IMG/VR virus record: IMGVR_UViG_3300016665_000824
Location: 70,297-134,296 of that record
DNA length: 64,000 nt
Source of the DNA: a virus
Direction: 5' to 3' (one strand)
Shown piece by piece: positions 11,300 to 60,448 of the stretch. The notes below the pieces were generated by a model. It was not told the origin of the DNA. It did not search any database and worked only from the letters and a program-made list of their open reading frames with translations. How positions within the stretch are numbered: position 1 is the first letter of the stretch; every line of letters begins with the position of its first letter. The position numbers and the translations under genes are program-made.

Positions 11300-11755
11300 A
11301 TGTCTAACTCTAGTTCTGCCACAAAATTGGCGATCGCAAGATTAAAAGGATCTGACCTGCCTATTTTTGTTCCAGTTTCAGTCTCTGAGAAAGTCGCAAC
11401 CCTAGTCAGGGAGTGTATTTTACAGTCCGACAGTTTAAAGATATTAAAAGTTACTACTACAGTTTACAACGAGCTTACTAAGCATTTAAAGCAGTACGAA
11501 AAGCCAAAATATACCATTCCTCAGTATCTTTTGATGCTCCTATATACGGTTTCTACTACTTCAGAATTGATCGAAAAACACAACAAGGGTTTAATTTCAG
11601 ATGACGAGTTTATTAACTGTATCAAAAACAACAAAAACGCAAACGGGACTAAAACCTCCCGCAAAATGGGTCGGAAGAAAGCAAGCGTTGATGCCAGCGA
11701 TCGCGCAGTACTTCCCCGCGAGGTTCACAAAAGAACCAGTTCCAAGGTTTCTTGA
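11300..11755 (+). CDS. hypothetical protein (3' end uncertain; overlaps MTase gene in another frame)
   Basis: 151-aa ORF; last ~40 codons look non-coding and overlap the Dam-like ORF. Confidence 0.3.
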   Translation: MSNSSSATKLAIARLKGSDLPIFVPVSVSEKVATLVRECILQSDSLKILKVTTTVYNELTKHLKQYEKPKYTIPQYLLMLLYTVSTTSELIEKHNKGLISDDEFINCIKNNKNANGTKTSRKMGRKKASVDASDRAVLPREVHKRTSSKVS

Positions 11756-12518
11756 TTTCAAAAAGGGTGTCGGCAATTTCCACGACCCTTTCGTTGGTAC
11801 TGGTAGTGCATTTTTGTATTTTGCGGATGGATTTCGAGGCGATCGCAAGATTTTTATTAGTGACAGTAATCCTGAACTCATTAATATTTGGCTGTGCATT
11901 CAAGCCGATCCTCTAAGGCTTTTAAGATCCTTGCTTGAATACAAGCGCCCTGTATTTAACAGCGCCGAATCGTACTATCACGAAAGGCAGATCTTCAATC
12001 AGCAGTTTAAAGGTTCTTACGACTACGAGCTAGCAGCAAGAATGATCTACTTAATTCAGGCTGGTTTCAATAGCCTATGGAGGGTTAACAGCGACGGTGA
12101 AATGAACACGCCTTTTGGCTCTCAGAAGCAAATTGCCCTTCTTACCGAGAATGATTTGACCGCGCTTTCGGTTCTCCTTCAAAAAGCGACAATCAAACAT
12201 CAGCCTTTTGAAGAGTCGCTAAAAGATGTACAACCCAATGATGTCGTCTATCTCGACCCGCCATACATTGAAGTCAAAAAGAATTCCTTCAATAAATACA
12301 CCACAAAAGGTTTTAGCAGAGAGCAGCAGATACTCCTCCGCCAAGAAGCCGATCGCCTGCACGATCTAGGCGCTTATGTATACGCCAGTAATAGCGATAC
12401 CCCCTTGAGTCGCGAAATTTGGTCGGGCTGGAAAATCGCAGAACTGACGAGATCGGGCTGCATGAACTCAGATGCAACCAAGCGTCAACGGGTTGGAGAG
12501 TTGTTATTTTATAAATAA
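11601..12518 (+). CDS. N6-adenine DNA methyltransferase, Dam family (D12 class)
   Basis: KWVGRK (cf. KWAGGK), FVGTGSAF SAM-binding motif, and DPPY catalytic motif (VVYLDPPYIE) in the translation. Confidence 0.8.
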   Translation: MTSLLTVSKTTKTQTGLKPPAKWVGRKQALMPAIAQYFPARFTKEPVPRFLDFKKGVGNFHDPFVGTGSAFLYFADGFRGDRKIFISDSNPELINIWLCIQADPLRLLRSLLEYKRPVFNSAESYYHERQIFNQQFKGSYDYELAARMIYLIQAGFNSLWRVNSDGEMNTPFGSQKQIALLTENDLTALSVLLQKATIKHQPFEESLKDVQPNDVVYLDPPYIEVKKNSFNKYTTKGFSREQQILLRQEADRLHDLGAYVYASNSDTPLSREIWSGWKIAELTRSGCMNSDATKRQRVGELLFYK

Positions 12519-13395: not shown

Positions 13396-13605
13396 ATGAA
13401 TACACAAATTAAGCTCAGGCATTCCGTTGTTTTACCTACACCCCTAAAAGTTGGCGATCGCGTAGAAATCGCAGGTCCATCTCGCCACGTTGGAATTATT
13501 ACGGAGATTAAAGATAGTCCATATTCGGGGCTATCCTACAGCGTCAAGTTTGGCAGCAATATCCGTCTTGACCGTATCGCCCCAGAAGCCTTGACAAAGT
13601 TATGA
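13396..13605 (+). CDS. hypothetical protein
   Basis: 69-aa ORF, tightly spaced. Confidence 0.35.
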   Translation: MNTQIKLRHSVVLPTPLKVGDRVEIAGPSRHVGIITEIKDSPYSGLSYSVKFGSNIRLDRIAPEALTKL

Positions 13606-13934
13606 TTAAGAAGCGTCCAGCGATCGGGCGGCTAGTAAGGTTGCCAAGTAAAATCGTCACTGTTGTGGGGTATAAGGATGGGGTTTTTCTAGTCCGCGTC
13701 GGCACGGGAAAGACTCAGAAAATCACGGAATCGTTTCTTATGGCGCACGGCGTTCTTGTCGAGAAGGAGTGGCGCGAGGAGAAGAAGTCTGCACCCAAAC
13801 AGGAATACGTGAACCGAGAGTTTAAACGCTTCTTTGAGGAGCGAGCCGAAAGGGACTACCAAGAAAAAGTTCTTAAGGGCTTTAAGATTGAGGATGAAGT
13901 TATCGAAGGATTTGAGGCGATCGCGGAGGAATAA
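13602..13934 (+). CDS. hypothetical protein
   Basis: 110-aa Lys/Glu-rich ORF; ends in ...AIAEE with junction motif GCGATCGCGGAGGAATAAATG. Confidence 0.4.
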   Translation: MIKKRPAIGRLVRLPSKIVTVVGYKDGVFLVRVGTGKTQKITESFLMAHGVLVEKEWREEKKSAPKQEYVNREFKRFFEERAERDYQEKVLKGFKIEDEVIEGFEAIAEE

Positions 13935-14141: not shown

Positions 14142-14407
14142 TGCGAAAAATAGACAAGGACTACAGTTTTACAGAACGAGAGATTCAGGCGTTAATGTTG
14201 ATATGCACTATTGGACGAGAAGACTGGCTCACTAAAGAGGTGAAGGAGATATTGTCGCAATACATAAGCAGAAAGATGTATCACAGGACTGCTTCTCAAG
14301 TCTTTGCTCACAGAAAAAGAGTTCTGGGTTCTTTCCCTAGCAATGCGGGTAAATACTTACTTGAAAGGCGAACTAGCTTTATTGAGCGATCGCGGAGGAG
14401 TGAGTAA
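14141..14407 (+). CDS. hypothetical protein
   Basis: 88-aa ORF; ends ...RSRRSE within a third copy of GCGATCGCGGAGGA. Confidence 0.35.
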   Translation: MRKIDKDYSFTEREIQALMLICTIGREDWLTKEVKEILSQYISRKMYHRTASQVFAHRKRVLGSFPSNAGKYLLERRTSFIERSRRSE

Positions 14408-14413
14408 AAATAT

Positions 14414-14450
14414 AAAAAGACGATCCGACGTGAGATCGGATCGTCTTTTT
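14414..14450. terminator. bidirectional intrinsic terminator between convergent gene blocks
   Basis: Perfect 15-bp stem aaaaagacgatccga / tcggatcgtcttttt, 7-nt loop, A/T tracts on both sides. Confidence 0.7.
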
Positions 14451-14578
14451 ATATTTTGGTAGGCTGTGAAACAACTAATACAAAAGGGTTTTAGGGTATT
14501 GGAAGGAATTTTGGTAAGGTGTGAATCTCGCTGCTTTTTAATTACGCGAATACACGTAATTCATATTTACCAATACCT

Positions 14579-16336
14579 CTAGCTAGCGATCGCCATTAAT
14601 TTAGTCAACCCAGCCTTCCGCAACATCTCTTGCTGGAGCTTGGTTTGAAAATATGGCTTATCCTCAGCACTTGCTACTCGATACAGTTCCAGCCAGTATT
14701 TCTCCCGCTTCTCGCAGTGTATATGCTGAATCTTGGCGATCGCACGGTCAACCACTGCCTTGACATCGCCAGCGATCGCCTCTTGCATTGCGTAAGGTAT
14801 GTCCGAAAAGTCATCGTTCAGGAATTTATCCCACAGCGCACAGTGATCGTCATGGGCAAATTCGATCTCTTGAAGCAGGATATACCCCCGCAAATCGGGA
14901 TGATGGACAAAGGCTTTTAGTATCTGCATTTCGGCTAGTTGCAGAGCAGTATAACTGGGTTTTGCGGCAACCTGTGGTGATTCAGATCGGAATACCGATC
15001 GCGCAAGTCGATGTAAATCCTCCTCAATGCGTACGGCAAGGCGAGCATTTCCCTGAGCTAACTTCTGAGCACACTTATGGGTATAGTGGCTACGTCGGGC
15101 ATCCATCGGCAATGGGGCGAGTATTTGCGCGATCGCTTGATTAGCTCGCTGGAAGTCGGCAGAATTGTTAAGGTCTTTGCCCTTAATCTCAAGGTCAATT
15201 AACCAGTCAAGGTATAGCGGCGCTTCGCGGAGCAGCGATAAGTACGCTTCAGAACCATAAGTGGTTAGGTACTCGTCGGCATCTTTTTTGCCCTCAATGG
15301 TTAGTATCCGTAGATTTACCGTACCATCCAGAACTAGCTCTAGGACTTGACTTACGGCTTTTTTAGTTGCCGTAACACCTGCTTTGTCCGAGTCGAAGTT
15401 GCAAACTATACGCTTCGACTCAGTATGGCGTAAAACCTGTTTAATTTGAGCGGCGCTAAGCGCTGTGCCCATTGAGCCGACTGCATGGGTAATTCCATTT
15501 TGGTGCAGGGAAATCACGTCGAGGTGTCCTTCGACAATTACCGCCTCGTCGTTCTTGGCGATCGCCTCACAAGCTTTGTCTAGTCCAAACAGTAGTTCAC
15601 CCTTTTTGAACAACTCGGTTTCGGGCGAGTTGATATACTTTGCGCCGTCGTCCTCACCGCTTAGCGATCGCGCAGAAAATCCAACCACGCGACCACGGAT
15701 ATCGGCGATCGGGATAATCAGGCGATCGCGAAATCGGTCATAGTAGCCTTCGTTTTCTTTGCGAGGTATCGCCAACCCCAATTCTTCAAGAGTTTGAACG
15801 GGGATATTTAACTCGGCAAGGTTACTCCACCCCGCAGGCGCGTAACCGAGCTTGAACTTATTGCAGGTATCTCTGGTGATTTTGCGTTTTTCTAAGTAGG
15901 CAAGGGCTTTGGTGTTGAGCTGTTGCTGGTAGTAACGAGTGACTTTAGCTATTTGATCGAAGAGGTATTCCCTGTGCGATCGCTCCTTAACGATTTGCTC
16001 GGCATGTTCTGGCTCTTCGGTTCTTACTTCAACCCCGTAACGACCAGCCAAATCTAGTACGGCATCTGGGAACGATTTATGACCAATCTCCATCATAAAC
16101 TTGATCGCACCACCCGACGCACCGCAGTTATGGCAGTAATACATGCCTTTGCTGGGGTCTACCGAGAGGGCGCTGGGATTCGTGCCGTTGTGAAATGGGC
16201 AAGCGCCACGAAATGAGTGACCCGACCGCTTAAGTACGACGTTTTCGCTAACGACATCAACGATGTCGGCTTTGTCGTTTACTGCGGCGATCGTATCAGC
16301 ATGGATTCGGAATGATTTAGGTTTGGCGGATTGCAT
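14579..16336 (-). CDS. dnaG: DNA primase DnaG
   Basis: CHC2 zinc finger (CPFHNGTNPSALSV...YYCHNCGASGGAIKF) and TOPRIM-like EGHLDVISL segment. Confidence 0.85.
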   Translation of the reverse strand: MQSAKPKSFRIHADTIAAVNDKADIVDVVSENVVLKRSGHSFRGACPFHNGTNPSALSVDPSKGMYYCHNCGASGGAIKFMMEIGHKSFPDAVLDLAGRYGVEVRTEEPEHAEQIVKERSHREYLFDQIAKVTRYYQQQLNTKALAYLEKRKITRDTCNKFKLGYAPAGWSNLAELNIPVQTLEELGLAIPRKENEGYYDRFRDRLIIPIADIRGRVVGFSARSLSGEDDGAKYINSPETELFKKGELLFGLDKACEAIAKNDEAVIVEGHLDVISLHQNGITHAVGSMGTALSAAQIKQVLRHTESKRIVCNFDSDKAGVTATKKAVSQVLELVLDGTVNLRILTIEGKKDADEYLTTYGSEAYLSLLREAPLYLDWLIDLEIKGKDLNNSADFQRANQAIAQILAPLPMDARRSHYTHKCAQKLAQGNARLAVRIEEDLHRLARSVFRSESPQVAAKPSYTALQLAEMQILKAFVHHPDLRGYILLQEIEFAHDDHCALWDKFLNDDFSDIPYAMQEAIAGDVKAVVDRAIAKIQHIHCEKREKYWLELYRVASAEDKPYFQTKLQQEMLRKAGLTKLMAIAS

Positions 16337-28105: not shown

Positions 28106-28331
28106 CCCAGCAGGACATTATCCTAGACAAGATGCGTCGGAAGCAATCGGAATTTGAAGACTACTACGTTTTTAGCACTCACGACATAGTGACCCTATGT
28201 GAGGACAGTCATCTGGACTGGGACTTGGCTTTTGACCAGCTAATAGCTTTAAACAAGAGGAATCTAGTTGCTATAAATCCGACATATTGCGATCGCACAG
28301 GCAAATTTATCGGATTGTTGTGGGGTTTAAA

Positions 28332-29276
28332 ATGAGTAAAACCGTAGCCACGATGTATTCTGGCTTTGGCGGAGTTGATCAGGGTTTCGTTTTGGCAGGG
28401 TATACGCCAGTCTTTGCGATCGATAACAATCCTGATGCAGTAGCGGTTTATATCGAGAATTTTGGCAACCACTGTCTAGAGAAGGACGTTTGTGAGTTTG
28501 ATTATTCAAGAGTTAAAGCAGATCACCTCCATGCTTCTCCAAGCTGCAAAGAGTTTAGTAGCGCCAATCACCGTAGTAGCGAAACCGATCTCGATATTCG
28601 ATGCGCCCAAGCTACGGTTAAGGCGATCGCACAGATAAACCCTCAAACATTTTCCCTCGAAAATGTAAAGCAGTACGCTAAGTCTAAGTCTTTTGATTTG
28701 ATTAGGCGATCGCTACGAGAAATGGGCTACGCCTGCAACGTAACCGTAGTCAACGCGAAGGATTTCGGTGTATCCCAATCACGAGAAAGGCTAATTCTTC
28801 GAGCATGGGTTAAATCCCGCAAACGCCCTAGACCTTTGGCGTTGTACAAACAGTGTTTAACAATGGGGTGGCATGACGCGATCGCCGATTTAATCCCCAC
28901 TCTCAAACCACAACCATTGAATAATTGGCAGCTAGCCTCTCTTGAGGAGCAGGGTATAGACCCCACCAACCTAACTGCACTGGTTAGCAAAGATGGGTCT
29001 CGCAAGAAAAAAGGCTTTAAAAATACTTTTGCCTTGGTAATCCCCTCGTCCAAGCCTTGCCCAACCCTCAAGGCAATGGGGCATAATCAGCACTGTCAGC
29101 AGTATTCGATTGTGGTTAACGGTGTTGGTTATCGGATTTCTACCGAGGCGATCGCGAGACTAATGAGCTTTCCCGACTCATTCAAATTCTCAGGAGTGAA
29201 TTATAAAGACTGTATGGGTTTAGGTAATGCAGTACCGCCATTATTGGTAAGAGCGATCGCGGAAAGTTTTGCTTAA
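28332..29276 (+). CDS. DNA (cytosine-5)-methyltransferase
   Basis: Motif I YSGFGG, motif IV PSCKEFS (Pro-Cys catalytic dipeptide), ENV, QSRER, GNAV; start at ATG 28332. Confidence 0.8.
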   Translation: MSKTVATMYSGFGGVDQGFVLAGYTPVFAIDNNPDAVAVYIENFGNHCLEKDVCEFDYSRVKADHLHASPSCKEFSSANHRSSETDLDIRCAQATVKAIAQINPQTFSLENVKQYAKSKSFDLIRRSLREMGYACNVTVVNAKDFGVSQSRERLILRAWVKSRKRPRPLALYKQCLTMGWHDAIADLIPTLKPQPLNNWQLASLEEQGIDPTNLTALVSKDGSRKKKGFKNTFALVIPSSKPCPTLKAMGHNQHCQQYSIVVNGVGYRISTEAIARLMSFPDSFKFSGVNYKDCMGLGNAVPPLLVRAIAESFA

Positions 29277-38864: not shown

Positions 38865-39090
38865 AGAAGATGCTGAAGAATGCTTAGCTAAAAATCTAAA
38901 GGTTGTAACGCGCTATGGGCTAGGCGAAATTATTTCGATCGCCAAGAAAAGCGACCCAGTACAATGGGCAGAGATAAAACAACTTGACCGCGATCGCCAG
39001 TTTGAAGTACCCAGATGTCTATACCTATCGAGCATCAGCAGATATACTGCTGTTTTGGTTGAGCAAAGTGAAGTAGAAAGTATTTTTTAA
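38857..39090 (+). CDS. hypothetical protein
   Basis: ORF 38683..39090; start at ATG 38857 overlapping previous stop; last plus-strand gene before packaging block. Confidence 0.35.
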   Translation: MTREDAEECLAKNLKVVTRYGLGEIISIAKKSDPVQWAEIKQLDRDRQFEVPRCLYLSSISRYTAVLVEQSEVESIF

Positions 39091-40715
39091 TATCCCGATC
39101 GCCACACGATATCCATCAGAGTTTCCCTACCAGCGAAAGCAATAACACAAGCGTCACTACAATTAGGCGATCGCCCCAATCTACGAATAGTTTTAGAAGC
39201 CTTATCCTCAATGCGTAACTTCGCGTTGGGGGTTTCTTCGTAGTAGACGTTACTAAAGTCCGTCATCAGATATTCTTCCTCCTCTAGTGGTGCGATCGCC
39301 GATATATCGTCATTGCCATCGGCAGCAGCAAAGAATTCACGCAGTTTCCAATACCATTGAGCCTTCCAGTTCATATATAGCTGATCGAAGTCTTGGTTGG
39401 CATCTTCTTCTACCGCATCACCAAAGTTAGCTGCCCATACTTGCGCTCCCCATCCGCGATCGAGCAAGTAAGCTAATGTACCCGAACCAACACCCGTGGC
39501 ATCTATACCCACTTTACAGTTAGGATAGACGCGCAGATATTCTTCCTCAATGATTTGGGCAATACGAATAACGTCTTTGCGATCGCCTACACAGGGGATA
39601 ACCCTCGCGATCTTAAGCACATTACCTTGAAACCCACAAATAGCATGGTCATCACTCATGGAGCCGACATCTACACCAAAACTCCAAGGTGTATTGACAT
39701 TGATAATTGTTTCCCACAGATCGGGATTGAGATCGTATCTTGCCCGTGCCGCAACAAAGTAGCTCTTGGGAAGTATAGACGCGCCACCCGATTCCGAGAA
39801 CAAGCCCTCAATACGAGTCAGCCAGAAAGGTGAGTTTTCACCCTTCTTGATACGCATCCTTTCAATCCATGCGATCGAGATAGCACCCTTGATTACATCT
39901 CTGGGTAAGTCAGCATCCCATTCGGATTGAGGTTTGATTGGCTCGTCGCGAGAGTTGGGGTCATTAGGCGATCGCTTAATCTTTGCCTCGACCTCTGGTT
40001 TAAGTCGGTGCATCCCATCAAGATGCAGGTCGTAAGCCCATTCAACATTTGGGTGCTGCCATGCACTGCATCTGATATGGCTGAGGTTGCAAGCAGTATA
40101 GAAAGGGGAGTCACATCTGGTTGGGTTGCCAATACGAAGAATCTTATTTTGTTCCCCTGTAAGACAGCTTTCTAGGGAGGTATCTACGGCAGGACTGATA
40201 CCACAGGCTTCATCTTCAATAATAAGCATTCGTTCTGAGTGGATACCCTGCGCTGCCGAATCATTATGGTCACTACTGGAAAAGCCGTATGCCTCAACCC
40301 CTTCTTCGAGGAATACCCGCAGCTCATTTCTCTTGCCGCCGAGCTTCTTCTTGTGTTTGTCGTATAGACGACGGACAACGCCCCAAAGCAACTTAGTAAC
40401 CTGTCGGTGAGTTGGTGCGGTAGAGATAACAAGCGATCGCACAGCAAATACCGCCCAGAGGACTAACCACCCACTCAAGTATGTCTTGCCTAAACCGTGG
40501 CAGGCGGCAACATTGGTAACACGCTTGTTCTTGACCGATTCAAGAATGGTGATCTGTTGTCCCGTGATAACAATATCGGGTTCAAGGTATCGAATAAATC
40601 CTTCGGGGTCGTCGGCAAATCGGGTTAAGTCTTCACCGATCGCCACATCCCCCTCATTACCTGATACCAGCTTAATCTGCGTATTACAGCTCGTCTTCAG
40701 TCTCGCAAAGCCCAC
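39087..40715 (-). CDS. terminase large subunit
   Basis: Walker A ACHGLGKT, Walker B LIIEDEA, C-terminal RNase-H-like nuclease segment (FGVDVGSMSDD ... VGIDATGVGSG). Confidence 0.7.
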   Translation of the reverse strand: MGFARLKTSCNTQIKLVSGNEGDVAIGEDLTRFADDPEGFIRYLEPDIVITGQQITILESVKNKRVTNVAACHGLGKTYLSGWLVLWAVFAVRSLVISTAPTHRQVTKLLWGVVRRLYDKHKKKLGGKRNELRVFLEEGVEAYGFSSSDHNDSAAQGIHSERMLIIEDEACGISPAVDTSLESCLTGEQNKILRIGNPTRCDSPFYTACNLSHIRCSAWQHPNVEWAYDLHLDGMHRLKPEVEAKIKRSPNDPNSRDEPIKPQSEWDADLPRDVIKGAISIAWIERMRIKKGENSPFWLTRIEGLFSESGGASILPKSYFVAARARYDLNPDLWETIINVNTPWSFGVDVGSMSDDHAICGFQGNVLKIARVIPCVGDRKDVIRIAQIIEEEYLRVYPNCKVGIDATGVGSGTLAYLLDRGWGAQVWAANFGDAVEEDANQDFDQLYMNWKAQWYWKLREFFAAADGNDDISAIAPLEEEEYLMTDFSNVYYEETPNAKLRIEDKASKTIRRLGRSPNCSDACVIAFAGRETLMDIVWRSGY

Positions 40716-41271
40716 CGCTTAGTACCTCCCTGATAGTTGTTTGCGCTTGATCGGCGATCGCCATAATCGTCTCGGCTTTGGACTGCGGTAGTATTCCCTC
40801 GTTAGCCATTTGCGTCGCTAGTACATCGATTGTTGTCCGAGGTATCGCTGGCATAATCATCTCGATAATCTTGGGAGGGCAGCGCAGGATAACCTCGTTA
40901 GTAGTCTCTACCTCGTCAATGCAATCTAAGACTAATTCATCGGGCTTTTTCTTGTTTGGGACATACCGAGTCCTTTTAGTTCGAGAGGTGGTAGTCCTTG
41001 GAGACTTGTGGCAGGTTAAATAGTCTTCTACGCAAGCCTTAGCTAAGTTAATAAAGTAATCGGGCTGCGATCGCCTGTAGGCTAGTAGCGCGTCGTCAAT
41101 TTCTTCGCTCAGAGTTGGACACTCCTGTCTCAATCTGAGATACGTGTCTTTCGATAGAATACGAGGATCGTTTTTATAAATGGATTCGACCTCACCAGTT
41201 ATCCTGATGCGGTCTTTTATCTCCTTTATTAATGCGGGAGTTACCTGCTTGATTACGCCTTTCTTAGCCAT
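40684..41271 (-). CDS. candidate terminase small subunit
   Basis: 195-aa basic protein directly upstream of and overlapping the TerL gene; assignment by position only. Confidence 0.35.
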   Translation of the reverse strand: MAKKGVIKQVTPALIKEIKDRIRITGEVESIYKNDPRILSKDTYLRLRQECPTLSEEIDDALLAYRRSQPDYFINLAKACVEDYLTCHKSPRTTTSRTKRTRYVPNKKKPDELVLDCIDEVETTNEVILRCPPKIIEMIMPAIPRTTIDVLATQMANEGILPQSKAETIMAIADQAQTTIREVLSGGLCETEDEL

Positions 41272-41302
41272 TCATCGACGAAAGCATGTCCTAACGCAGA
41301 TT

Positions 41303-41551
41303 CTAGCCGATTTTGTGGTAATAGCGATCGCATTCTGCTAATTCTGACTCAATATACTTAAGATCGGACTCAAGATGAGGGGACAGAGGATTTAGATGGG
41401 CGTATCTCATCTCGGCGGAATATCTTCTATAGAGGATCTTAAGCTCTTCCTTTGTTGGCTCAGGTAGCGATCGCCTAGCTCTGTCCTTGATCATTACATC
41501 GGAATACTGTTCAAAAGCCAATTTATTCATTACTGATTCTGCTGATCGCAT
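41303..41551 (-). CDS. hypothetical protein
   Basis: 82-aa ORF. Confidence 0.35.
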   Translation of the reverse strand: MRSAESVMNKLAFEQYSDVMIKDRARRSLPEPTKEELKILYRRYSAEMRYAHLNPLSPHLESDLKYIESELAECDRYYHKIG

Positions 41552-41829
41552 AACACCACATTGTCAAAAGAAAATGGGACTAACTCCCCGTTGTCGAAGC
41601 GAATCCACACCCTCTCACAAGCGATCGCCACTGTCTCTACGGTTGCCTCAAGCCCATACTTGCCATTGCCAGGGTATAGGCATACTACGCGATCGCCTTC
41701 TTCGGGAGTATATCTTCCGAGGCGTTTTAGAACTGTCTTTAGCTTGTGTATCATATTTTGCTTATTACTAACGGCAAGCCTGTTAGGAGATCGCATATTA
41801 ACGACAAACTTCAAGCTATAGACTTTCAA
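41530..41829 (-). CDS. hypothetical protein
   Basis: 99-aa ORF. Confidence 0.35.
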   Translation of the reverse strand: MKVYSLKFVVNMRSPNRLAVSNKQNMIHKLKTVLKRLGRYTPEEGDRVVCLYPGNGKYGLEATVETVAIACERVWIRFDNGELVPFSFDNVVLCDQQNQ

Positions 41830-42169
41830 AAGTTACAGCTTGATTAGCAAACATCCTGATCTGCTGAATCAACATCATTTTGTTTTCAGGGTTCGATTCT
41901 GCTTTGAGTTGATCATGCAGATTTAAAATCCACTCAGTAACCTTGACTGTGGATTCTTTTGCGGGGCTATCAAACAACCCTATGATTTGTGCGATCGCCT
42001 CCTTAGAGATTTCGTCCCACCCCATAGAGTCAATACTGCTAGCCAAAACAAAACTCAGCCTATTAACCGCTTCGTGTTTAGCTTTTCTATCCTCGGTTGT
42101 GGGCGGATGATATTTAAACCAATCACTCAACGGGATACCTAGATATAGTGCTTCCATAATTCTCCTCAA
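41816..42169 (-). CDS. hypothetical protein
   Basis: 117-aa ORF; first gene after the 0.65-kb ORF-free region. Confidence 0.4.
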   Translation of the reverse strand: MRRIMEALYLGIPLSDWFKYHPPTTEDRKAKHEAVNRLSFVLASSIDSMGWDEISKEAIAQIIGLFDSPAKESTVKVTEWILNLHDQLKAESNPENKMMLIQQIRMFANQAVTFESL

Positions 42170-42186
42170 ATGCTTTATAAAGGTAG

Positions 42187-42287
42187 GTTAAAACCCATCA
42201 GTTAAACCTTCAAGCACTGCCTTCAACAATATACGCGGCGCGTGTATCTCTGGCTTAGCTCTATTGATTTAACTGATGGGTTTTGCA
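42187..42287. repeat. 17-bp perfect inverted repeat (AAAACCCATCAGTTAAA) with ~60-nt spacer in leader of minus-strand operon
   Basis: gttaaaacccatcagttaaacc at 42187-42208 and gatttaactgatgggttttgc at 42267-42287. Confidence 0.6.
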
Positions 42288-42826
42288 GAGAGTGGATTTT
42301 GCCTTTTTAGGAGCGCCAAGTAATTAGTTTTGGAAGAACAATTACTAACAAACTTTTATGCGATCGCACAACATGGCTTTTTCCTGATTCCTACATAGGC
42401 TTTTACCCTGTAATGCCATGAATTTATAGGTTCAGCGATCGCATGGTAGACAGATTACTCTGTCCGCACTTTCTCTGGACAAGAAAGTAGTGGGATAATC
42501 AACCGCCAGCACCATATCTGGCATTCGTCACCACGAGGGCTTAAGGTGTGTGTTGCCACAGTTGATTGTTTGCTAGCGTACTGGAAAGGCGATCACTATT
42601 GCCTCATGACCACCTAAAACTCGCTCATATATTAAGGTTAGGCTTCGAGCAAGGCTTAATCTCAGGTCTAGCACCCCCTGTTCGACACCTTACTGCCGCA
42701 GGGACGGTGCGATCGCCTACCAACTAGGGAAATTTATTCAATAACCACACGGAGAGACCCCGACGTTCATTGATAGTGCGATCGCAACATAATTCTAACA
42801 CAGTCTTGTGGTGGTTCAGATCGGAA

Positions 42827-43309
42827 TTAGTTGGCTGCTCGACCACCACATCTAGTACCATCTGCGGCAGTCTGCCATGAGTATTGACAGTTTCCAGAGT
42901 ATCCAGAAGTGTTTGAGGGTGGATTGTCTAGCAAATAAACAGGCTTTTGCTGACAAGTTAAAGAAGCACTATCAAAGGTTGAATCCGTCGGGCAGGGGGC
43001 AGTACAAAGAGTCCCATCCCCACGTCTGTCGATAGTTCCTTTTGGGCAAGCACTACCAACCAGAAACCCTTGACTTGGAGAAGTTTTTTGTGATGAGGTT
43101 GGGATGCTTCTTGATTCGCTAGTCGTATTGATAGAAGTCCCATTGTTGCCCGTACATAGATGGTCCAGATTTACCAGAACCCCTCGGCTGTTGACCATAT
43201 AACACAAGGGCAAGTTGCTGGGTAGCCCCTCAAAAGGATCTTTAGCGATCGCTAGTTGAGGCAAGGCAAAAATAGTAACAAGAGACAACAAGACACCGAT
43301 CTTTTTCAA
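42827..43309 (-). CDS. secreted Cys-rich protein
   Basis: N-terminal signal-peptide-like segment (MKKIGVLLSLVTIFALPQLAIA), many Cys; a 42-nt inverted repeat (gtggtggt / accaccac) spans its stop codon. Confidence 0.45.
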   Translation of the reverse strand: MKKIGVLLSLVTIFALPQLAIAKDPFEGLPSNLPLCYMVNSRGVLVNLDHLCTGNNGTSINTTSESRSIPTSSQKTSPSQGFLVGSACPKGTIDRRGDGTLCTAPCPTDSTFDSASLTCQQKPVYLLDNPPSNTSGYSGNCQYSWQTAADGTRCGGRAAN

Positions 43310-43375
43310 GATTTCTTCCTCTTTTTAGAATATATAAATGATTATTTCACTAAAGCCCGATCATTGGGTAGGCAT

Positions 43376-44035
43376 CTAGCCTCCGTAATAGTCAGCACAT
43401 AAATACTCAAGCGATCGCCCTATTTTAACCGAGTAATTCTCACCCTCGATACTAGCTTCCTGCATCACCTTTTCTAAAGCCGCTCTCACGATCTCCACAG
43501 CGTCCGTAGGAACACTAAAGATCATTCGAGTGAATTCATCACTGGCTTCGGGAGGAGCTTTCTCCTTGGCGGCTTCGAGCATCTTGGCGAGACTTTCCTT
43601 TGTGTGAGGTGTGGGGAGATAAGCGCGATCGCCTAATTTCTTTTCAACCCTTTTGAGGGAAACACTTAGCTTAACTGGATCTTCTTCGCCGTGAGCCTTG
43701 GATGCGGAGGTGTATAACTCGTATTCTTCATCCTGTAAGCCCGTAATGACATTGCAATAGTAGTATTCCAGCCCCTCTAAGTATCTATGTTCGCCATTTA
43801 CAATCTCGTACTCACCCTCAATATGCGGATGGGGGCGAACAACAAGCGGCTCAATTTGGGTAAACATCTTTAAGCTCTCCCCCAAAGCCTTTTGGTGGTG
43901 AGGCTGCAAAACGTTTGAGTTCCAAGAGTTCGGATGTATCTTTGAGGTCTCAATCTTTACATTCCACTCTTTCTGGATTCGTTGCGCGATCGGTAGCGAA
44001 TAATCAATCTTCTTCGTCATCTTCATCCTCTTCAA
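43376..44035 (-). CDS. ParB-like nuclease-domain protein
   Basis: N-terminal segment (IHPNSW ... QIEPLVVRP ... YEIVNGEHRY) resembles the ParB N-terminal domain. Confidence 0.4.
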   Translation of the reverse strand: MKRMKMTKKIDYSLPIAQRIQKEWNVKIETSKIHPNSWNSNVLQPHHQKALGESLKMFTQIEPLVVRPHPHIEGEYEIVNGEHRYLEGLEYYYCNVITGLQDEEYELYTSASKAHGEEDPVKLSVSLKRVEKKLGDRAYLPTPHTKESLAKMLEAAKEKAPPEASDEFTRMIFSVPTDAVEIVRAALEKVMQEASIEGENYSVKIGRSLEYLCADYYGG

Positions 44036-52188: not shown

Positions 52189-52241
52189 ACACAAGCAACC
52201 CGCCAAGCCTCTCTACGATGCTGAAACTGGCGGGTTGCTTG
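52189..52241. terminator. stem-loop between convergent genes
   Basis: cacaagcaacccgcc ... ggcgggttgcttgtg, ~14-bp stem with ~23-nt loop, followed by T-rich tgttgtg. Confidence 0.45.
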
Positions 52242-52249
52242 TGTTGTGA

Positions 52250-52633
52250 TTATACCTGAGTGGCGAAGTATTTAGAGGCGATCGCGATAAGCCTTAATTG
52301 TTCGCTGGGATAAATCCCTGAAGGTCCAACTGCCTCATATAGTCTCTTTAGCACCTCAGCTTTGCCGTACTCGGAAATCAGTAAAGCCCATCCAAGTACA
52401 TGTAGCTGGAACAAAAGCTCTTTCTGGAGCCGTTCCTTATGAGCTGTACTCTTACCCTTAAACGTCGGATGTCGAACCTCTCGTACTCGCAGCTTGTTTT
52501 TCGGGAAGGAAATGTAGAGACTTGAGGTTAGGTATTCATCTATCAGAACGAGAAGTTCTTGGCGATCTTTTTGTAAGAGTTCTGCTTGCATAGACATACT
52601 CAAAAACCTTTGTATTTCTGCCAAGAAGTCCAA
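52250..52633 (-). CDS. hypothetical protein
   Basis: 127-aa ORF. Confidence 0.4.
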   Translation of the reverse strand: MDFLAEIQRFLSMSMQAELLQKDRQELLVLIDEYLTSSLYISFPKNKLRVREVRHPTFKGKSTAHKERLQKELLFQLHVLGWALLISEYGKAEVLKRLYEAVGPSGIYPSEQLRLIAIASKYFATQV

Positions 52634-56526: not shown

Positions 56527-57237
56527 ATGTTTATGCGATCGCGTATCTCACTACCGATCGCTGACCATCCAACCATACTGGACAGTAAAAATATTATGTC
56601 ATACATAGACAGCCTGAAAGTAACTGCGAAGAAACATGCAATAATACAGGATATTATTTCTAGGTGCTGGAATTACTGTGTTCAACCACCCAAGAGACTC
56701 AATTCTGAGATACTTAACCATCCTGACATCATCAGCCTTATTGACCATAGCTGGGATAGCAGTATTGTTGGGCTAAACGAGTACCAAAAGCTTGTATTTT
56801 CCCTTGTCAGTGAAGGGGTAAGCGTTAGAAGCGAGTACCCTCTTTGTTTTCACGACATCTTTGTTAGGTTTCTATCGGAGATGTGCCCACTAAGCCAAAG
56901 GATTTCGATAGAGGAGAACTCTATCGACGAGATACACTTAAAATTTCCAGCCAAAAGAGGGATTTATTTTTGCTTGCGTACGGTTATTGGCTTTCGCCTT
57001 GACGGTTTTAAAAACGAAGTTTGGTATGTCGGGAAGTCGGGAAATTTTAGAGAGAGGTGGAAAAGTCACCACAAGTTTGAGGCTTTAAAGGCTATCAAGA
57101 ACGTTGCAGTGTGTTGGCTGCCCCTCGAAGATTACTCTGATGAGCAGCTAAGCTACGCAGAAGAAGTATATATTTACATGCTTCAACCCGTATTTAATGG
57201 CACTTCCAAGCCTGAAAGGTGTCTAGTGGTTAACTAA
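56527..57237 (+). CDS. GIY-YIG nuclease-domain protein
   Basis: C-terminal KRGIYFCL ... VWYVGKSGNFRERWKSHH ... EEVYIYMLQPVFN fits GIY-YIG. Confidence 0.5.
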   Translation: MFMRSRISLPIADHPTILDSKNIMSYIDSLKVTAKKHAIIQDIISRCWNYCVQPPKRLNSEILNHPDIISLIDHSWDSSIVGLNEYQKLVFSLVSEGVSVRSEYPLCFHDIFVRFLSEMCPLSQRISIEENSIDEIHLKFPAKRGIYFCLRTVIGFRLDGFKNEVWYVGKSGNFRERWKSHHKFEALKAIKNVAVCWLPLEDYSDEQLSYAEEVYIYMLQPVFNGTSKPERCLVVN

Positions 57238-57250
57238 CAAACAGTCTAAT

Positions 57251-57296
57251 AGCCAGACAAAAAAAGATCCGAAACTGGATCTTTTTTTGTCTGGCT
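57251..57296. terminator. bidirectional intrinsic terminator
   Basis: Perfect 20-bp stem agccagacaaaaaaagatcc / ggatctttttttgtctggct with 6-nt loop, between convergent genes. Confidence 0.7.
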
Positions 57297-57342: not shown

Positions 57343-57912
57343 TTACCTTGGCAGATCCCTCACGATCGCCCTAACAATCCCCTCGAACTCTCGTTCTATA
57401 AGCATGAAAGACTCCTGCCTCGACTCCGCTCGCCTAGCCATAACGGCATCAAATATCTCCGCGTCGCGTTGCTTCAATACTAATGCTGGCTCAGTATTCG
57501 GCGAGAAGCCCCTAACGTAATACGGGAAATAATCAACCCTCCAGTACCGCACTAAGCCATCGTCGGGATTGAGGAAATCTACAGGCGCGATCACCGTGTA
57601 AATAAAGTCCAAATTAATCCCGTCTAGCTCGACCTCCTCCTCGCATTGAGGGCAGATCCATCCCCGTTGAATGGTTGCATTGTCAGGTATTGAGGTGACT
57701 GGGGCTTCAGAACAGATGTGATAGACCAAATACTTGCGGGTAAACCTTCTAGGGTAATCCTTTACAAAGCTATCTAGTAATGCGATCGCCTCTACTCTTT
57801 TTAATCCCAATCTTTGGGCTGCGACATGCGGCTGAGTCCAATCTCCCACCGAACGGAAGATATCTTGGAGGGCGCTCCTCTGGCTATCGGTCAAGCTGGT
57901 TTCGATATACAT
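57343..57912 (-). CDS. hypothetical protein
   Basis: 189-aa ORF with CPQCEEE pattern. Confidence 0.4.
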   Translation of the reverse strand: MYIETSLTDSQRSALQDIFRSVGDWTQPHVAAQRLGLKRVEAIALLDSFVKDYPRRFTRKYLVYHICSEAPVTSIPDNATIQRGWICPQCEEEVELDGINLDFIYTVIAPVDFLNPDDGLVRYWRVDYFPYYVRGFSPNTEPALVLKQRDAEIFDAVMARRAESRQESFMLIEREFEGIVRAIVRDLPR

Positions 57913-59575: not shown

Positions 59576-59823
59576 GGCAGTATCCTGTCCAGCAGGTAGA
59601 TAATTAAGTGCATAGCCTTAACATTCCTGTTCGCGCAGTATATCTTCAGGCGAGTATGCAGTGAAGCAGGTAGATCAACCGTGATCCGCACAGTCCGCTC
59701 CTTCTCCCCTTCCACGGGCAACCCATCCAAAATATTTCCCGCAGTATTGTTTGTGTTCAGATCGGAATTAGCCTTGATAAAATTCTGCTCAATTGTTTCG
59801 GTAAGAGGTATACGCTTAGACAC
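59572..59823 (-). CDS. ParG-like ribbon-helix-helix protein (candidate centromere-binding partner of ParA)
   Basis: C-terminal RITVDLPASLHTRLKIYCANRNVKAMHLIIYLLDRIL is RHH-like; immediately downstream of and overlapping parA. Confidence 0.45.
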   Translation of the reverse strand: MSKRIPLTETIEQNFIKANSDLNTNNTAGNILDGLPVEGEKERTVRITVDLPASLHTRLKIYCANRNVKAMHLIIYLLDRILP

Positions 59824-60448
59824 AGCTCAGCACCTCCTCAAATAAAGCTTCGTACTCTGCCGCCGAATCTTGGGCGGCTTTGCTGTTTAATCCCCAGACA
59901 GTTGTGCGTTGACCAGACGAGTCGGCGATCGCCTGTTTCTGGTGAATCACTGTTTCTAACAATGGGATAACCGATATGGCTTTTAAGGTGGCGATCGCCT
60001 CTTCCTTGAGCATGGTTCGAGGGACTGCGCGGTTTAAAAAGAATGCGGCTCTGGGTAAACCCCCTCGCACTGACTGAGCTTGCAGTATTAGCTTTACTGA
60101 GTCCATTGCCGAGTTGAGGTCTAACCTTGTTGGTTGACATGGAACAATTGCTAGATCAGTTCTTAGTAGGATTGCGCGAGTTACCTCCGACAAGTTGGCG
60201 GGACCATCGAGGATTAAGTAGTCGCTCTTTAGGGCTGGTATTTTGTCGAGAATGCTGTCGGAATCGGACATGATTGTATATGCGATCGGAGTGGCGATCG
60301 TGCCTGCCCATTTACTTGAAGATTGCTGACCATCGGCATCGACCAGGATTACGTCTTTATCGTGGCGGCGCAGATACTCTGCCAAGTGGACTGAAGTGGT
60401 GGACTTGCCACAACCACCTTTTTGATTGACCAACGAGATTACAGTCAT
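59816..60448 (-). CDS. parA: partition ATPase ParA (small, type Ib-like)
   Basis: Deviant Walker A NQKGGCGKST, 210 aa. Confidence 0.8.
   Translation of the reverse strand: MTVISLVNQKGGCGKSTTSVHLAEYLRRHDKDVILVDADGQQSSSKWAGTIATPIAYTIMSDSDSILDKIPALKSDYLILDGPANLSEVTRAILLRTDLAIVPCQPTRLDLNSAMDSVKLILQAQSVRGGLPRAAFFLNRAVPRTMLKEEAIATLKAISVIPLLETVIHQKQAIADSSGQRTTVWGLNSKAAQDSAAEYEALFEEVLSCV

What the first reader, a model, noticed from the sequence alone, without database searches (positions are those of the whole stretch)
42170..42826. 0.65-kb ORF-free region with a 17-bp perfect inverted repeat next to the packaging block
No ORF of 60 aa or more covers 42170-42826. It contains a perfect 17-bp inverted repeat (AAAACCCATCAGTTAAA) with a ~60-nt spacer right in front of the first gene of the block that includes the terminase genes, plus smaller palindromes and a TGCCACAG variant. 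The region could hold a pac or cos site, an origin, or a structured non-coding RNA.
Basis: seen in the sequence. Interest (0 to 1): 0.45.

Follow-up and report, generated by a model that had tools for sequence, protein, structure and literature searches.

The report
Structured non-coding leader before terminase genes
The ORF-free stretch is most likely a transcribed, non-coding control region in front of the DNA-packaging genes of an uncultured cyanobacterial phage-like element, and the 17-bp inverted repeat is the stem of a conserved RNA hairpin, not a packaging site or a replication origin.

Summary
42170-42826 is the longest ORF-free stretch in the window, and the perfect 17-bp inverted repeat (42190-42206 / 42268-42284) exceeds chance. 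All flanking genes are on the minus strand. The repeat is the stem of a ~97-nt hairpin (B2) ending 31 nt before the ATG of the first gene of the operon that ends in the large terminase.

Across six related lineages the gap is a mosaic. A promoter-like motif P (TGnTAGAAT plus a palindrome) opens it in all six. Exchangeable structured modules follow (A1, A2, B1, C in the window; a tRNA-like gene in one relative). A long terminal hairpin closes it: B2 in four lineages, an unrelated terminator-like hairpin H2 in two. Modules are conserved as well as or better than most flanking coding DNA, and spacers are unalignable. Stem substitutions keep pairing on the minus strand, and two small hairpins in the A modules keep GNRA loops.

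The hairpin is absent from two relatives with similar terminases and does not co-vary with the TerS-position protein. No iterons or AT-rich segment are present. No Rfam family matches.

Best reading: a late-operon leader with an RNA-level gate, comparable to lambda PR'-6S-tR'. Covariation is not statistically significant with four sequences, and function is untested. Interest is moderate to low.

The parts
42776..42838 (-). Module P: promoter-like element. It has a palindrome TTCnGATCnGAA (42815-42826, directly after the stop codon of the upstream ORF at 42827-42829) and an invariant GTGTTAGAATT (42791-42801) that fits an extended -10 (TGnTAGAAT, hexamer 42792-42797). The predicted transcription start on the minus strand is near 42785.
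   Evidence: nhmmer finds it once per locus in all six lineages. The alignment shows invariant GTGTTAGAATT and GATC. It is single-copy in the window. The promoter function is inferred from the consensus match and the position. The two-hexamer sigma-70 scan did not call it because there is no -35.
42708..42789 (-). Module C: conserved segment with a small hairpin CGGGG-UCU-CUCCG (42750-42762) followed by a U-rich tail. L071 carries the same module at a different position, between A2 and B1.
   Evidence: 79.7% identity to L071 817-892. The G-C to A-U double change in the hairpin is read from alignment A3. The hairpin is flagged as terminator-like.
42494..42570 (-). Module A1: 77-nt multi-stem element. 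P1 is AAUCAAC/GUUGAUU. It encloses a GUG-GNRA-CAC hairpin and a GCCAG-8nt-CUGGC hairpin.
   Evidence: Present in the four lineages that have B2, at 87-93% identity. GNRA loop variants are GCAA/GUAA/GUAA/GCGA, with a G-C to A-U compensatory change in L077. It is single-copy by covariance model (104 bits; next hit 13.7 bits, E=0.37).
42436..42493 (-). Module A2: two hairpins. One is CUUUCU-7nt-AGAAAG. The other is GACAGA-GUAA-UCUGUC, which has a GNRA loop.
   Evidence: Present in the window, L020 and L071. The stem shows C-G to U-A compensation, and the loop varies GUAA/GAAA/GGAA.
42368..42435 (-). Variable spacer bounded by HIP1 sites. It does not align between lineages.
   Evidence: Alignments A1 and A3.
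42307..42367 (-). Module B1: nearly invariant 49-nt core with the inverted repeat AGTAATT-N14-AATTACT (42319-42346). It folds as a hairpin in RNA, or it could be a protein operator.
   Evidence: Conserved in the window, L020 and L071. It is unique in the window. Three one-sided changes all keep pairing.
42189..42286 (-). It is a ~97-nt hairpin with a 19-20-bp lower stem (AAAACCC...GGGUUUU), a conserved structured apical domain, and an invariant UUUUA at the 3' end.
   Evidence: Window to L077 identity is 93% where flanking genes are 71-84%. 97.9% of cells are paired. At variable stem positions, 7 one-sided changes give G.U on the minus strand against 1 giving A.C, with 2 double changes. The minus-strand fold is better than the plus-strand fold (-45.6 against -37.3 kcal/mol).
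42158..42188 (-). Ribosome-binding region. SD GAGGAG is at 42162-42167. A 5-bp mini-hairpin CUUUA...UGAGG overlaps the SD.
   Evidence: Read from the sequence. The predicted pairing shows an A-U to G-C double change in L071.
41816..42157 (-). First gene after the leader (113 aa). It is a mobile cassette gene with YHPP..RKAKHE..IQQxRMFANQ motifs.
   Evidence: In other genomic contexts homology begins exactly at the ATG.
40684..41271 (-). 195-aa gene in the small-terminase position, overlapping the start of TerL.
   Evidence: It has no Pfam or PHROG family hit.
39087..40715 (-). Large terminase subunit, the last gene of the minus-strand operon.
   Evidence: phrog_2 E=8e-28. tblastn gives 25-29% identity over about 90% of the length to annotated phage terminases.
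42827..43309 (-). Upstream 160-aa ORF (signal-peptide-like N-terminus). It is cargo, absent in L071, where P follows the ParB-like gene directly.

Best explanation
The gap is a transcribed, non-coding leader on the minus strand. It lies between the replication/partition genes (DnaN-like, ParB-like, cargo) and the small operon that ends in the terminase genes.

Transcription is proposed to start at the conserved promoter-like element P, which has an extended -10 (TGnTAGAAT) and a palindromic operator-like site. The transcript runs through a set of exchangeable structured-RNA modules (C, A1, A2, B1 in the window). It ends in, or passes through, the long hairpin B2, whose stem is the 17-bp inverted repeat. 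B2 lies 31 nt before the first start codon.

B2 most likely acts at the RNA level as a terminator-type gate (attenuator) that limits entry of RNA polymerase into the packaging genes. Its strongly conserved apical domain suggests sequence-specific recognition on top of that. Module A1 accompanies B2 in all four lineages that have B2, even where everything between them is deleted. A1 is therefore the candidate cis-acting partner, for example an antiterminator-type RNA.

Shown here: the modular conservation, the folds, the strand bias of the stem substitutions, and the shared architecture (P, then non-coding modules, then a long hairpin, then the first ORF) in six lineages.

Inferred: promoter activity, termination, any antitermination, and the timing of expression.
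For: (1) Discrete non-coding modules are conserved as well as or better than most flanking coding DNA, while spacers do not align. Window to L071: A1+A2 93% against 78-83% in genes. Window to L077: B2 93% and A1 87% against 71-84%.

(2) P is present once per locus in all six lineages, always at the 5' edge of the ORF-poor stretch and directly after whichever gene lies upstream. Its core GTGTTAGAATT is invariant.

(3) Every lineage ends the leader with a long, near-perfect hairpin about 22-75 nt before the first ORF. This is B2 in four lineages and the unrelated H2 in two. H2 is built like the window's own hairpins between convergent genes at 14407-14457 and 57251-57296, with an A-tract, a GC core and a U-tract. 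The base of B2 shares this build: AAAACCC...GGGUUUUA, with UUUUA invariant.

(4) Strand-specific structure. For block B the minus-strand alifold is -45.6 kcal/mol against -37.3 for the plus strand, and the same substitutions become A.C mismatches on the plus strand. In B2, 7 one-sided changes give G.U against 1 giving A.C, plus 2 double changes, and 97.9% of cells are paired against 33-44% when partners are slid.

(5) Two small hairpins in the A modules keep a GNRA tetraloop while the loop letters and a stem pair change, and the unrelated H2 hairpin of L080/L081 also has a GUAA loop. These are GNRA only on the minus strand.

(6) In L080 the same slot, in the same orientation, holds a tRNA-Glu-like gene (ARAGORN; Rfam tRNA 34.6 bits against a gathering score of 29). 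This indicates that the slot is expressed as RNA.

(7) A1 and B2 co-occur in 4 of 4 lineages and stay adjacent in L077, where A2, the spacer and B1 are missing.
Against: There are no expression data.

Formal covariation tests are not significant with only four distinct sequences: 69/500 and 128/500 shuffles reach the observed values.

G.T wobbles are also tolerated in single-stranded DNA hairpins, so the strand bias alone does not prove RNA.

P has no recognisable -35 and was not called by the two-hexamer promoter scan.

B2 is not a canonical intrinsic terminator. It has a 61-nt structured apical region and only 4-5 U after the stem, and the terminator scan did not flag it.

No Q-type or other antiterminator protein family was found among the neighbouring proteins scanned.

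Block A alone does not discriminate between strands by folding energy.

The A1-B2 co-occurrence could be simple co-inheritance among related lineages.
Confidence: 0.5

Rival explanations
1. Stand-alone small RNA gene. P to B2 is an independent non-coding transcription unit, about 600 nt in the window and about 250 nt in L077. Its product (core A1 plus the apical domain of B2) acts in trans on host or phage targets. B2 is simply its terminator, and control of the downstream genes is incidental.
For: The evidence for transcription and structure is the same as above. The unit can carry a tRNA-like gene in L080, as independent RNA genes do. Long invariant single-stranded stretches in the apical domain of B2, such as GAAGGCAGTGCTT, would suit a seed or a protein-binding site.
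Against: In L077 and L081 no obvious promoter separates the hairpin from the next ORF, which starts 22-75 nt later. Downstream genes therefore seem to depend on read-through. No target can be proposed. This reading cannot be distinguished computationally from the leader model.
Confidence: 0.2
2. RNA processing or stability element. B2 and H2 are RNase III-type cleavage sites, or protective 5' hairpins, that mature or stabilise the packaging-operon mRNA and tune translation of the first gene. This would resemble the RNase III hairpin in the lambda N leader or the T7 inter-genic processing sites.
For: B2 has about 20 consecutive base pairs in its lower stem, and H2 has 20-21 bp of perfect stem. 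That is long enough for RNase III. Both hairpins sit 22-75 nt upstream of a start codon. A mini-hairpin overlaps the SD and shows a compensatory change.
Against: This reading does not explain why two unrelated hairpins both place an A-tract and a U-tract at the stem base, as terminators do. Cyanobacterial RNase III specificity is not assessed here. There are no data on cleavage.
Confidence: 0.12
3. DNA-level site. The inverted repeat, or the conserved P motif, is a recognition site on DNA: a pac or cos site for the terminase, an origin or oriT-type hairpin, a partition (ParB) site, or a protein operator with no RNA function.
For: The region lies between a ParB-like gene and the terminase genes. 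P is conserved wherever the terminase is conserved and contains a palindrome. B1 has a symmetric AGTAATT-N14-AATTACT repeat. G.T wobbles are tolerated in ssDNA hairpins.
Against: B2 is absent in two of six lineages with similar terminase genes and is replaced there by an unrelated hairpin. The hairpin type does not co-vary with the N-terminus of the TerS-position protein: window (B2) is 82% identical to L081 (H2), and L071 (B2) is 77% identical to L069 (H2). There are no iterons, no AT-rich dip and no skew change. One-arm substitutions break DNA symmetry but keep RNA pairing. The distance from P to the terminase genes varies from about 400 to about 1570 nt.
Confidence: 0.1
4. No function. The gap is decayed coding sequence or neutral recombination scars between cargo genes, and the inverted repeat is a leftover.
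For: The slot between ParB and the 195-aa gene is a cargo hot-spot with different genes in each lineage. HIP1 sites lie at several module boundaries.
Against: Modules are 84-93% identical where adjacent spacers are unalignable and genes are 71-86% identical. No reading frame is conserved. The 92-aa ORF of L020 is frame-broken in the window, and an ATG-ORF across B2 exists only in L077. Pairing is retained in 95-98% of cells.
Confidence: 0.03

Closest known systems
Lambda-type late-gene leader (PR' promoter, 6S RNA, tR' terminator, read through by Q)
   Same: A single promoter directly upstream of the late and packaging genes. It is followed by a few hundred nucleotides of non-coding transcript that ends in a terminator hairpin, and then by the late genes. 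There is a DNA element at the promoter that could load a regulator. The lambda layout is stated from established knowledge; Q and qut are summarised in PMC11658703.
   Different: No Q-family protein was found among the scanned neighbours. The leader is longer (about 600 nt) and modular. The terminal hairpin has a large conserved apical domain. Promoter and terminator activities are untested.
HK022 put RNAs (cis-acting processive antiterminator RNAs)
   Same: A short structured RNA (about 70 nt, two stem-loops), encoded downstream of a phage promoter and acting on terminators further downstream without needing close spacing (PMC9378689). A1 is 77 nt, multi-stem, promoter-distal, and lies at a variable distance (7 to about 205 nt) upstream of the terminator-like B2.
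   Different: No sequence or structural homology was demonstrated. A1 has an enclosing helix with two inner hairpins, not two side-by-side stems. The host is a cyanobacterium. Activity is untested.
Tn916 canT, Bacillus EAR and pLS20 conAn2 (RNA antiterminators of mobile-element or long operons)
   Same: Large multi-stem non-coding regions (canT is 452 nt) at the head of a long operon of a mobile element. They are needed to pass internal terminators and are orientation-specific (PMC11658703).
   Different: EAR is in Rfam and did not match. There is no evidence here for downstream terminators being bypassed, and none for function.
Phage tRNA or small-RNA slots, and bidirectional intrinsic terminators
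   Same: One relative carries a tRNA-like gene in the slot. H2 and the window's hairpins between convergent genes share the build of a bidirectional terminator: an A-tract, a GC core and a U-tract.
   Different: The window itself has no tRNA. The 61-nt apical domain of B2 is atypical for a simple terminator.

Membership tests
Intrinsic (Rho-independent) terminator | Stable stem-loop with G+C-rich pairs at the stem base | tested here: met
   B2 has a 19-20-bp lower stem closed by CCC/GGG, about -41 kcal/mol, z about -4.6.
Intrinsic (Rho-independent) terminator | Short loop (about 3-8 nt) | tested here: not met
   B2 has 61 nt between the arms, folded into an apical domain, and the consensus scan did not flag it. 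The analogous H2 in L069, L080 and L081 does have a 4-nt loop.
Intrinsic (Rho-independent) terminator | U-tract immediately 3' of the stem | tested here: inconclusive
   UUUUA is invariant in four lineages, but it is only 4-5 U long and pairs with the 5' AAAA.
Intrinsic (Rho-independent) terminator | Transcript 3' ends or RNA polymerase release at the site | not testable with these tools
   This needs Term-seq or in vitro transcription.
HK022 put-type antiterminator RNA | About 70-nt RNA with two stem-loops downstream of a phage promoter | tested here: inconclusive
   A1 is 77 nt with an enclosing helix and two inner hairpins. The topology differs from the V-shaped two-stem put (PMC9378689).
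HK022 put-type antiterminator RNA | Sequence or structure homology to putL or putR | not tested
   No put sequences were available for direct comparison. No Rfam family matched the region at E up to 10.
HK022 put-type antiterminator RNA | Cis read-through of downstream terminators, dependent on the RNAP beta' zinc-binding domain | not testable with these tools
   This needs a reporter or in vitro assay.
EAR and other Rfam RNA families, including riboswitches, tRNA and tmRNA | Covariance-model match | tested here: not met
   No hit in the gap at gathering scores. At E up to 10 the only hit was a chance-level IS009 match outside the gap. There is no tRNA or tmRNA.
Lambda-type Q-dependent late leader | Promoter, then a non-coding leader, then a terminator, directly upstream of the late or packaging genes | tested here: inconclusive
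   The architecture is present in six lineages, but promoter and terminator activity are inferred from sequence only.
Lambda-type Q-dependent late leader | Q-family antiterminator gene in the element | tested here: not met
   No antiterminator family was found among the 59 distinct window proteins scanned with Pfam or PHROGs. Many ORFs have no family hit at all, so absence is not proven.
pac or cos packaging site | Conserved together with the terminase across relatives | tested here: not met
   B2 is absent from the L069 and L080-82 lineages although the TerS-position protein is 69-83% identical to the window's. P is conserved everywhere, so P cannot be excluded on this criterion.
pac or cos packaging site | Co-variation of the site with the DNA-binding part of the small terminase | tested here: not met
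   N-terminal identities cut across hairpin type: window (B2) to L081 (H2) 82%, L071 (B2) to L069 (H2) 77%.
pac or cos packaging site | Virion DNA termini at the site | not testable with these tools
   This needs read-start analysis of virion DNA.
Replication origin | Iterons or initiator boxes, an AT-rich unwinding segment, a skew switch | tested here: not met
   The only direct repeats are built on HIP1. GC is 0.447 in the gap against 0.454 in the window, and there is no skew inflection.
MITE or IS end | Multiple copies, terminal inverted repeats with target-site duplication | tested here: not met
   The arm and the whole B2 element are single-copy in the window and in every locus. No duplication flanks the arms.
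RNase III substrate | About 20 bp of uninterrupted dsRNA | tested here: met
   There are 20 consecutive pairs in the window's B2 fold and 20-21 in H2. Cleavage itself is not testable here.
Riboswitch (aptamer plus overlapping expression platform) | Fixed juxtaposition of the aptamer with a competing terminator or anti-terminator pairing | tested here: not met
   The A1-B2 distance ranges from 7 nt (L077) to about 205 nt (window), with unalignable DNA in between.

The most novel reading that the evidence does not exclude
Module A1, with or without A2, is a previously undescribed cis-acting RNA that makes RNA polymerase resistant to the B2 hairpin terminator. This would be a put/EAR/canT-type processive antiterminator, so that only transcripts started at the dedicated promoter P reach the terminase genes of a cyanobacterial phage-plasmid-like element. 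It would be an example of RNA-only antitermination in cyanobacteria or their phages, for which my literature searches found no report.
Probability: 0.15. Interest if true: 0.6.

Novelty: new member of a known kind. Interest (0 to 1): 0.35.

Why it matters
If the reading is right, this region is the control point that decides when an uncultured cyanobacterial phage-like element expresses its DNA-packaging enzyme. It would also add several structured RNA modules (A1, A2, B2) that match no Rfam family. It shows that such leaders evolve by swapping self-contained RNA modules, often at HIP1 sites, around a fixed promoter and a terminal hairpin. For annotation, it warns against labelling a long inverted repeat next to terminase genes as a pac or cos site without comparative evidence. 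The practical value is modest until transcription data exist.

Tried and rejected
- Known RNA families: an Rfam gathering scan of the whole window, a permissive scan of 41800-43400, and ARAGORN found nothing in the gap.
- Cultured relatives: blastn of the gap against the phage and plasmid collections gave no match.
- Chance 17-mers: the exact 17-mer arm in IMG/VR gave 18 single, unrelated hits (two show only a 21-nt match).
- Hidden coding: the 92-aa ORF across block A in L020 is not conserved, because a 5-nt indel and a stop break it in the window. An ATG-ORF across B2 exists only in L077. A short ORF beginning ATGGTGCTGGCGGTTGA is 27-28 aa in three lineages but 14 aa in L077. It has no SD and mostly non-synonymous differences, read.
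- Cassette idea: I tested whether the hairpin belongs to the 113-aa gene cassette. This is rejected, because in six other contexts homology starts exactly at the ATG, and L077 has B2 without the gene.
- MITE or IS end: rejected, because the element is single-copy.
- Divergent copies: covariance models R1 and R2 with filters off, and nhmmer, found no divergent copies of A1 or B2 in the window or other loci.
Only six lineages were found, and pattern scans for P, the A1 core and the B2 core in IMG/VR returned only the L020 lineage.
- A1-B2 competing pairing: a possible 7-bp alternative pairing in the window is not conserved in L077 (my reading), so I dropped it.
- Acb2/Tad1 identity of the 113-aa protein: only a sub-threshold Pfam hit and no PDB sequence match.
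Full report

Yes. No ORF of 60 aa or more overlaps 42170-42826. This is the longest such stretch in the window: 657 nt, against 551 and 544 for the next two. The inverted repeat is exactly as described, with arms at 42190-42206 and 42268-42284, 17 nt, 100% complementary, 61 nt apart. The arm occurs nowhere else in the window. In 40 simulated windows the longest perfect arm was 15 bp.

The 'smaller palindromes' are four copies of GCGATCGC, the cyanobacterial HIP1 octamer. HIP1 occurs 186 times in the window, about one per 344 bp, so these copies say nothing specific about the gap. Exact TGCCACAG occurs three times in 64 kb, which is about chance.

**2. Setting**

The window is part of a 134-kb metagenome contig. 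All genes flanking the gap are on the minus strand.
- **Upstream of the gap:** an FtsK-like ATPase, an M23/SLT peptidase, a DnaN-like clamp, a ParB-like protein and a 160-aa cargo ORF.
- **Downstream of the gap:** a 113-aa gene (ATG 42157, SD GAGGAG), two small genes, a 195-aa gene in the small-terminase position, and the large terminase at 39087-40715.
- **Beyond the terminase:** the terminase operon converges on a plus-strand replication and nucleotide-metabolism block. The portal gene is about 35 kb away at 3257-4912, and a ParA gene is at 59816-60448.

So the 'packaging block' contains only the terminase genes and a few small ORFs. On the minus strand the inverted repeat ends 31 nt before the first start codon of that block.

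**3. Relatives**

The 113-aa gene is a mobile cassette found in many contexts, and there homology starts exactly at its ATG. The repeat is therefore not part of that cassette.

Anchoring on the 113-aa gene, the ParB-like gene, the 195-aa gene and TerL recovered six lineages of the same element family:
- the window;
- L020 (several IMG/VR contigs);
- L071;
- L077/L078;
- L080/L081/L082/L079;
- L069/L075.

The interval between the ParB-like gene and the 195-aa gene is a cargo slot with different genes in each lineage.

**4. Anatomy of the gap**

Alignments and nhmmer mapping show that the gap is a mosaic of sharply bounded modules separated by unalignable DNA. Read 5' to 3' on the sense strand:

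| Lineage | Module order |
|---|---|
| window | P-C-A1-A2-spacer-B1-B2-[113 aa] |
| L020 | P-D-...-A1-A2-spacer-B1-B2-[113 aa] |
| L071 | P-E-A1-A2-...-C-B1-B2-[113 aa] |
| L077/78 | P-A1-B2-[99 aa] |
| L080-82 | P-hairpin-tRNA-like-D-H2-[196 aa] |
| L069 | P-E-...-H2-[next gene] |

Module identities equal or exceed those of most flanking coding DNA. A1+A2 is 93% identical between the window and L071, where genes are 78-83%. B2 is 93% and A1 87% between the window and L077, where genes are 71-84%.

*Module P (42776-42838).* P is present once in every lineage, directly after whichever gene lies upstream. It has the palindrome TTCnGATCnGAA and an invariant GTGTTAGAATT, which fits an extended -10 promoter (TGnTAGAAT). 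L071 has an 11-bp deletion between the two parts, about one helical turn. P is single-copy in the window.

*Terminal hairpin.* Every lineage ends the ORF-free stretch with a long, near-perfect hairpin about 22-75 nt before the first ORF. In four lineages this is B2. In two it is an unrelated hairpin, H2, with a 20-21-bp stem and a 4-nt loop.

**5. RNA or DNA, and which strand?**

*Folding energy.* For block B (B1 plus B2 plus the ribosome-binding region) the consensus fold is better on the minus strand: -45.6 against -37.3 kcal/mol. The substitutions seen in relatives become A.C mismatches on the plus strand.

*Stem substitutions.* In the four-lineage B2 alignment 97.9% of cells are paired, against 33-44% when partners are slid. 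Seven one-sided changes give G.U on the minus strand against one giving A.C, and there are two double changes.

*GNRA loops.* The small A1 hairpin reads GUG-GCAA-CAC, GUG-GUAA-CAC (twice) and GUA-GCGA-UAC. That is a compensatory pair change with the loop staying GNRA. The last A2 hairpin reads GACAGA-GUAA-UCUGUC, GAUAGA-GAAA-UCUAUC and GAUAGA-GGAA-UCUAUC. H2 in L080/L081 also has a GUAA loop. These loops are GNRA only on the minus strand.

*tRNA-like gene.* In L080 the slot carries a tRNA-Glu-like gene in the same orientation.

*Caveats.* Taken together this favours a sense-strand transcript with folded modules. But with four distinct sequences the shuffle controls are not significant (69/500 and 128/500). 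Block A alone does not discriminate between strands by energy. G.T wobbles are also tolerated in single-stranded DNA.

**6. What the inverted repeat probably does**

H2 is built like the window's own hairpins between convergent genes (14407-14457 and 57251-57296): an A-tract, a GC core and a U-tract, all fully paired. This is the form of a bidirectional intrinsic terminator. The base of B2 has the same form (AAAACCC...GGGUUUUA, with UUUUA invariant). B2 also carries a 57-61-nt apical domain with long invariant stretches, which a plain terminator would not need.

Two unrelated hairpins occupy the same position and share this base architecture. The most economical reading is an RNA-level gate between P and the packaging genes. 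This is comparable to the lambda late leader (PR', 6S RNA, tR'), stated from established knowledge. A1 accompanies B2 in all four lineages that have B2 and abuts it in L077. A1 is therefore the candidate cis partner, in the manner of HK022 put (PMC9378689) or Tn916 canT, EAR and conAn2 (PMC11658703). These steps are inferred, not shown.

**7. Rivals**

- **Stand-alone trans-acting sRNA.** It cannot be separated computationally from the leader model.
- **RNase III processing or stabilising hairpin.** It fits the 20-bp stems but not the shared A/U-tract base.
- **pac or cos role for the repeat.** This is disfavoured. B2 is absent from two lineages whose TerS-position protein is 69-83% identical to the window's, and the hairpin type cuts across the similarity of that protein's N-terminus. 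P is conserved everywhere, so a DNA-site role for P cannot be excluded on this criterion.
- **Origin.** This is disfavoured: no iterons, no AT-rich dip and no skew change.
- **MITE or IS end.** This is rejected, because the element is single-copy.
- **Coding.** This is unlikely, because no frame is conserved.

**8. Comparison with known systems, and novelty**

No Rfam family, tRNA or tmRNA matches the gap, and no Q-type antiterminator family was found among the scanned neighbours. The region works most like a phage late-operon leader with a promoter-proximal terminator. It is not a demonstrated member of any named RNA family. I rate it a new member of a known kind, with moderate to low interest. 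The most novel reading still open, a new RNA-only antiterminator in a cyanobacterial phage-like element, has a probability of about 0.15.

Noticed in passing
window 52199-52235 (+), inside the 17-bp inverted repeat 52189-52244: Rfam abiF RNA motif at 46.9 bits (gathering score 37). No plus-strand ORF of 100 aa or more follows it. It lies just past the end of the minus-strand gene 52250-52633, so it may simply serve as that gene's terminator hairpin.
   Followed up: no
window 41816-42157 (-); P0001-P0014: The 113-aa gene belongs to a small family with invariant YHPP..RKAKHE..IQQxRMFANQ motifs. It behaves as a mobile cassette, sitting after Mu-F, HU and other genes in different phage-like contigs. 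The Pfam Acb2/Tad1 hairpin-domain hit is below threshold (17.5 against 27 bits). Two distant homologues carry that domain in precomputed annotation. No PDB sequence match was found.
   Followed up: partly
L080 1976-2045 (+); degenerate in L081 about 1285-1355: A tRNA-Glu(UUC)-like gene (ARAGORN; Rfam tRNA 34.6 bits) sits in the equivalent leader of a sister lineage, with mismatches in the acceptor stem. The copy in L081 has a mutated T-arm and is no longer detected.
   Followed up: partly
whole window; module boundaries at about 42360-42367, 42435-42442, 42709-42716 and 42778-42785: HIP1 (GCGATCGC) occurs 186 times in 64 kb against about 1 expected, across both phage-like and replication genes. 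This points to long residence in a HIP1-rich cyanobacterium. HIP1 sites sit at several boundaries of the conserved leader modules, which hints at recombination there.
   Followed up: partly
window 14407-14457 and 57251-57296: Perfect 22-bp and 20-bp inverted repeats with A-tract, GC core and T-tract lie between convergent genes (13602-13934 + / 14579-16336 -, and 56527-57237 + / 57343-57912 -). They are likely bidirectional terminators, and I used them as internal comparators.
   Followed up: partly
window 3257-4912 (-), 39087-40715 (-), 43376-44035 (-), 59816-60448 (-): The layout is unusual. The large terminase is about 35 kb from the portal gene and is separated from it by a replication and nucleotide-metabolism block. 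The element also encodes a ParA ATPase and a ParB-like protein, which suggests a phage-plasmid-like lifestyle.
   Followed up: partly
window about 41272-41344 (-), and the equivalent segment in all six lineages: About 60 nt directly upstream of the 195-aa gene (…GCGATCGCTAYTACCACAAAAYMGGCTAGAATCTGCGTTAGR…) are conserved in every lineage. This holds whether the segment is the 3' end of the 82-aa ORF (window, L077) or non-coding (L080-82). It contains two TAGAAT/TTAGA-like motifs.
   Followed up: no
window 42815-42826 (-), 11601-12518 (+), 28287-29276 (+): The palindrome in P has an invariant GATC at its centre, and the element encodes two DNA methyltransferases. Methylation-sensitive control of P is conceivable.
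   Followed up: no
window 42441-42524 (-): A short ORF (MVLAVDYPTTFLSRESADRVICLPCDR) overlaps A1 and A2. It is present as a 27-28-aa ORF in three lineages but is truncated to 14 aa in L077. It has no SD and mostly non-synonymous differences, so it is probably not coding (read).
   Followed up: partly
L069 9157-9202; L080 2174-2217; L081 1479-1522: Hairpin H2 keeps its basal 13 bp (CAACAAAAUACCG/CGGUAUUUUGUUG) in both lineages, but the upper stem is entirely different. That amounts to multiple compensatory replacements.
   Followed up: partly
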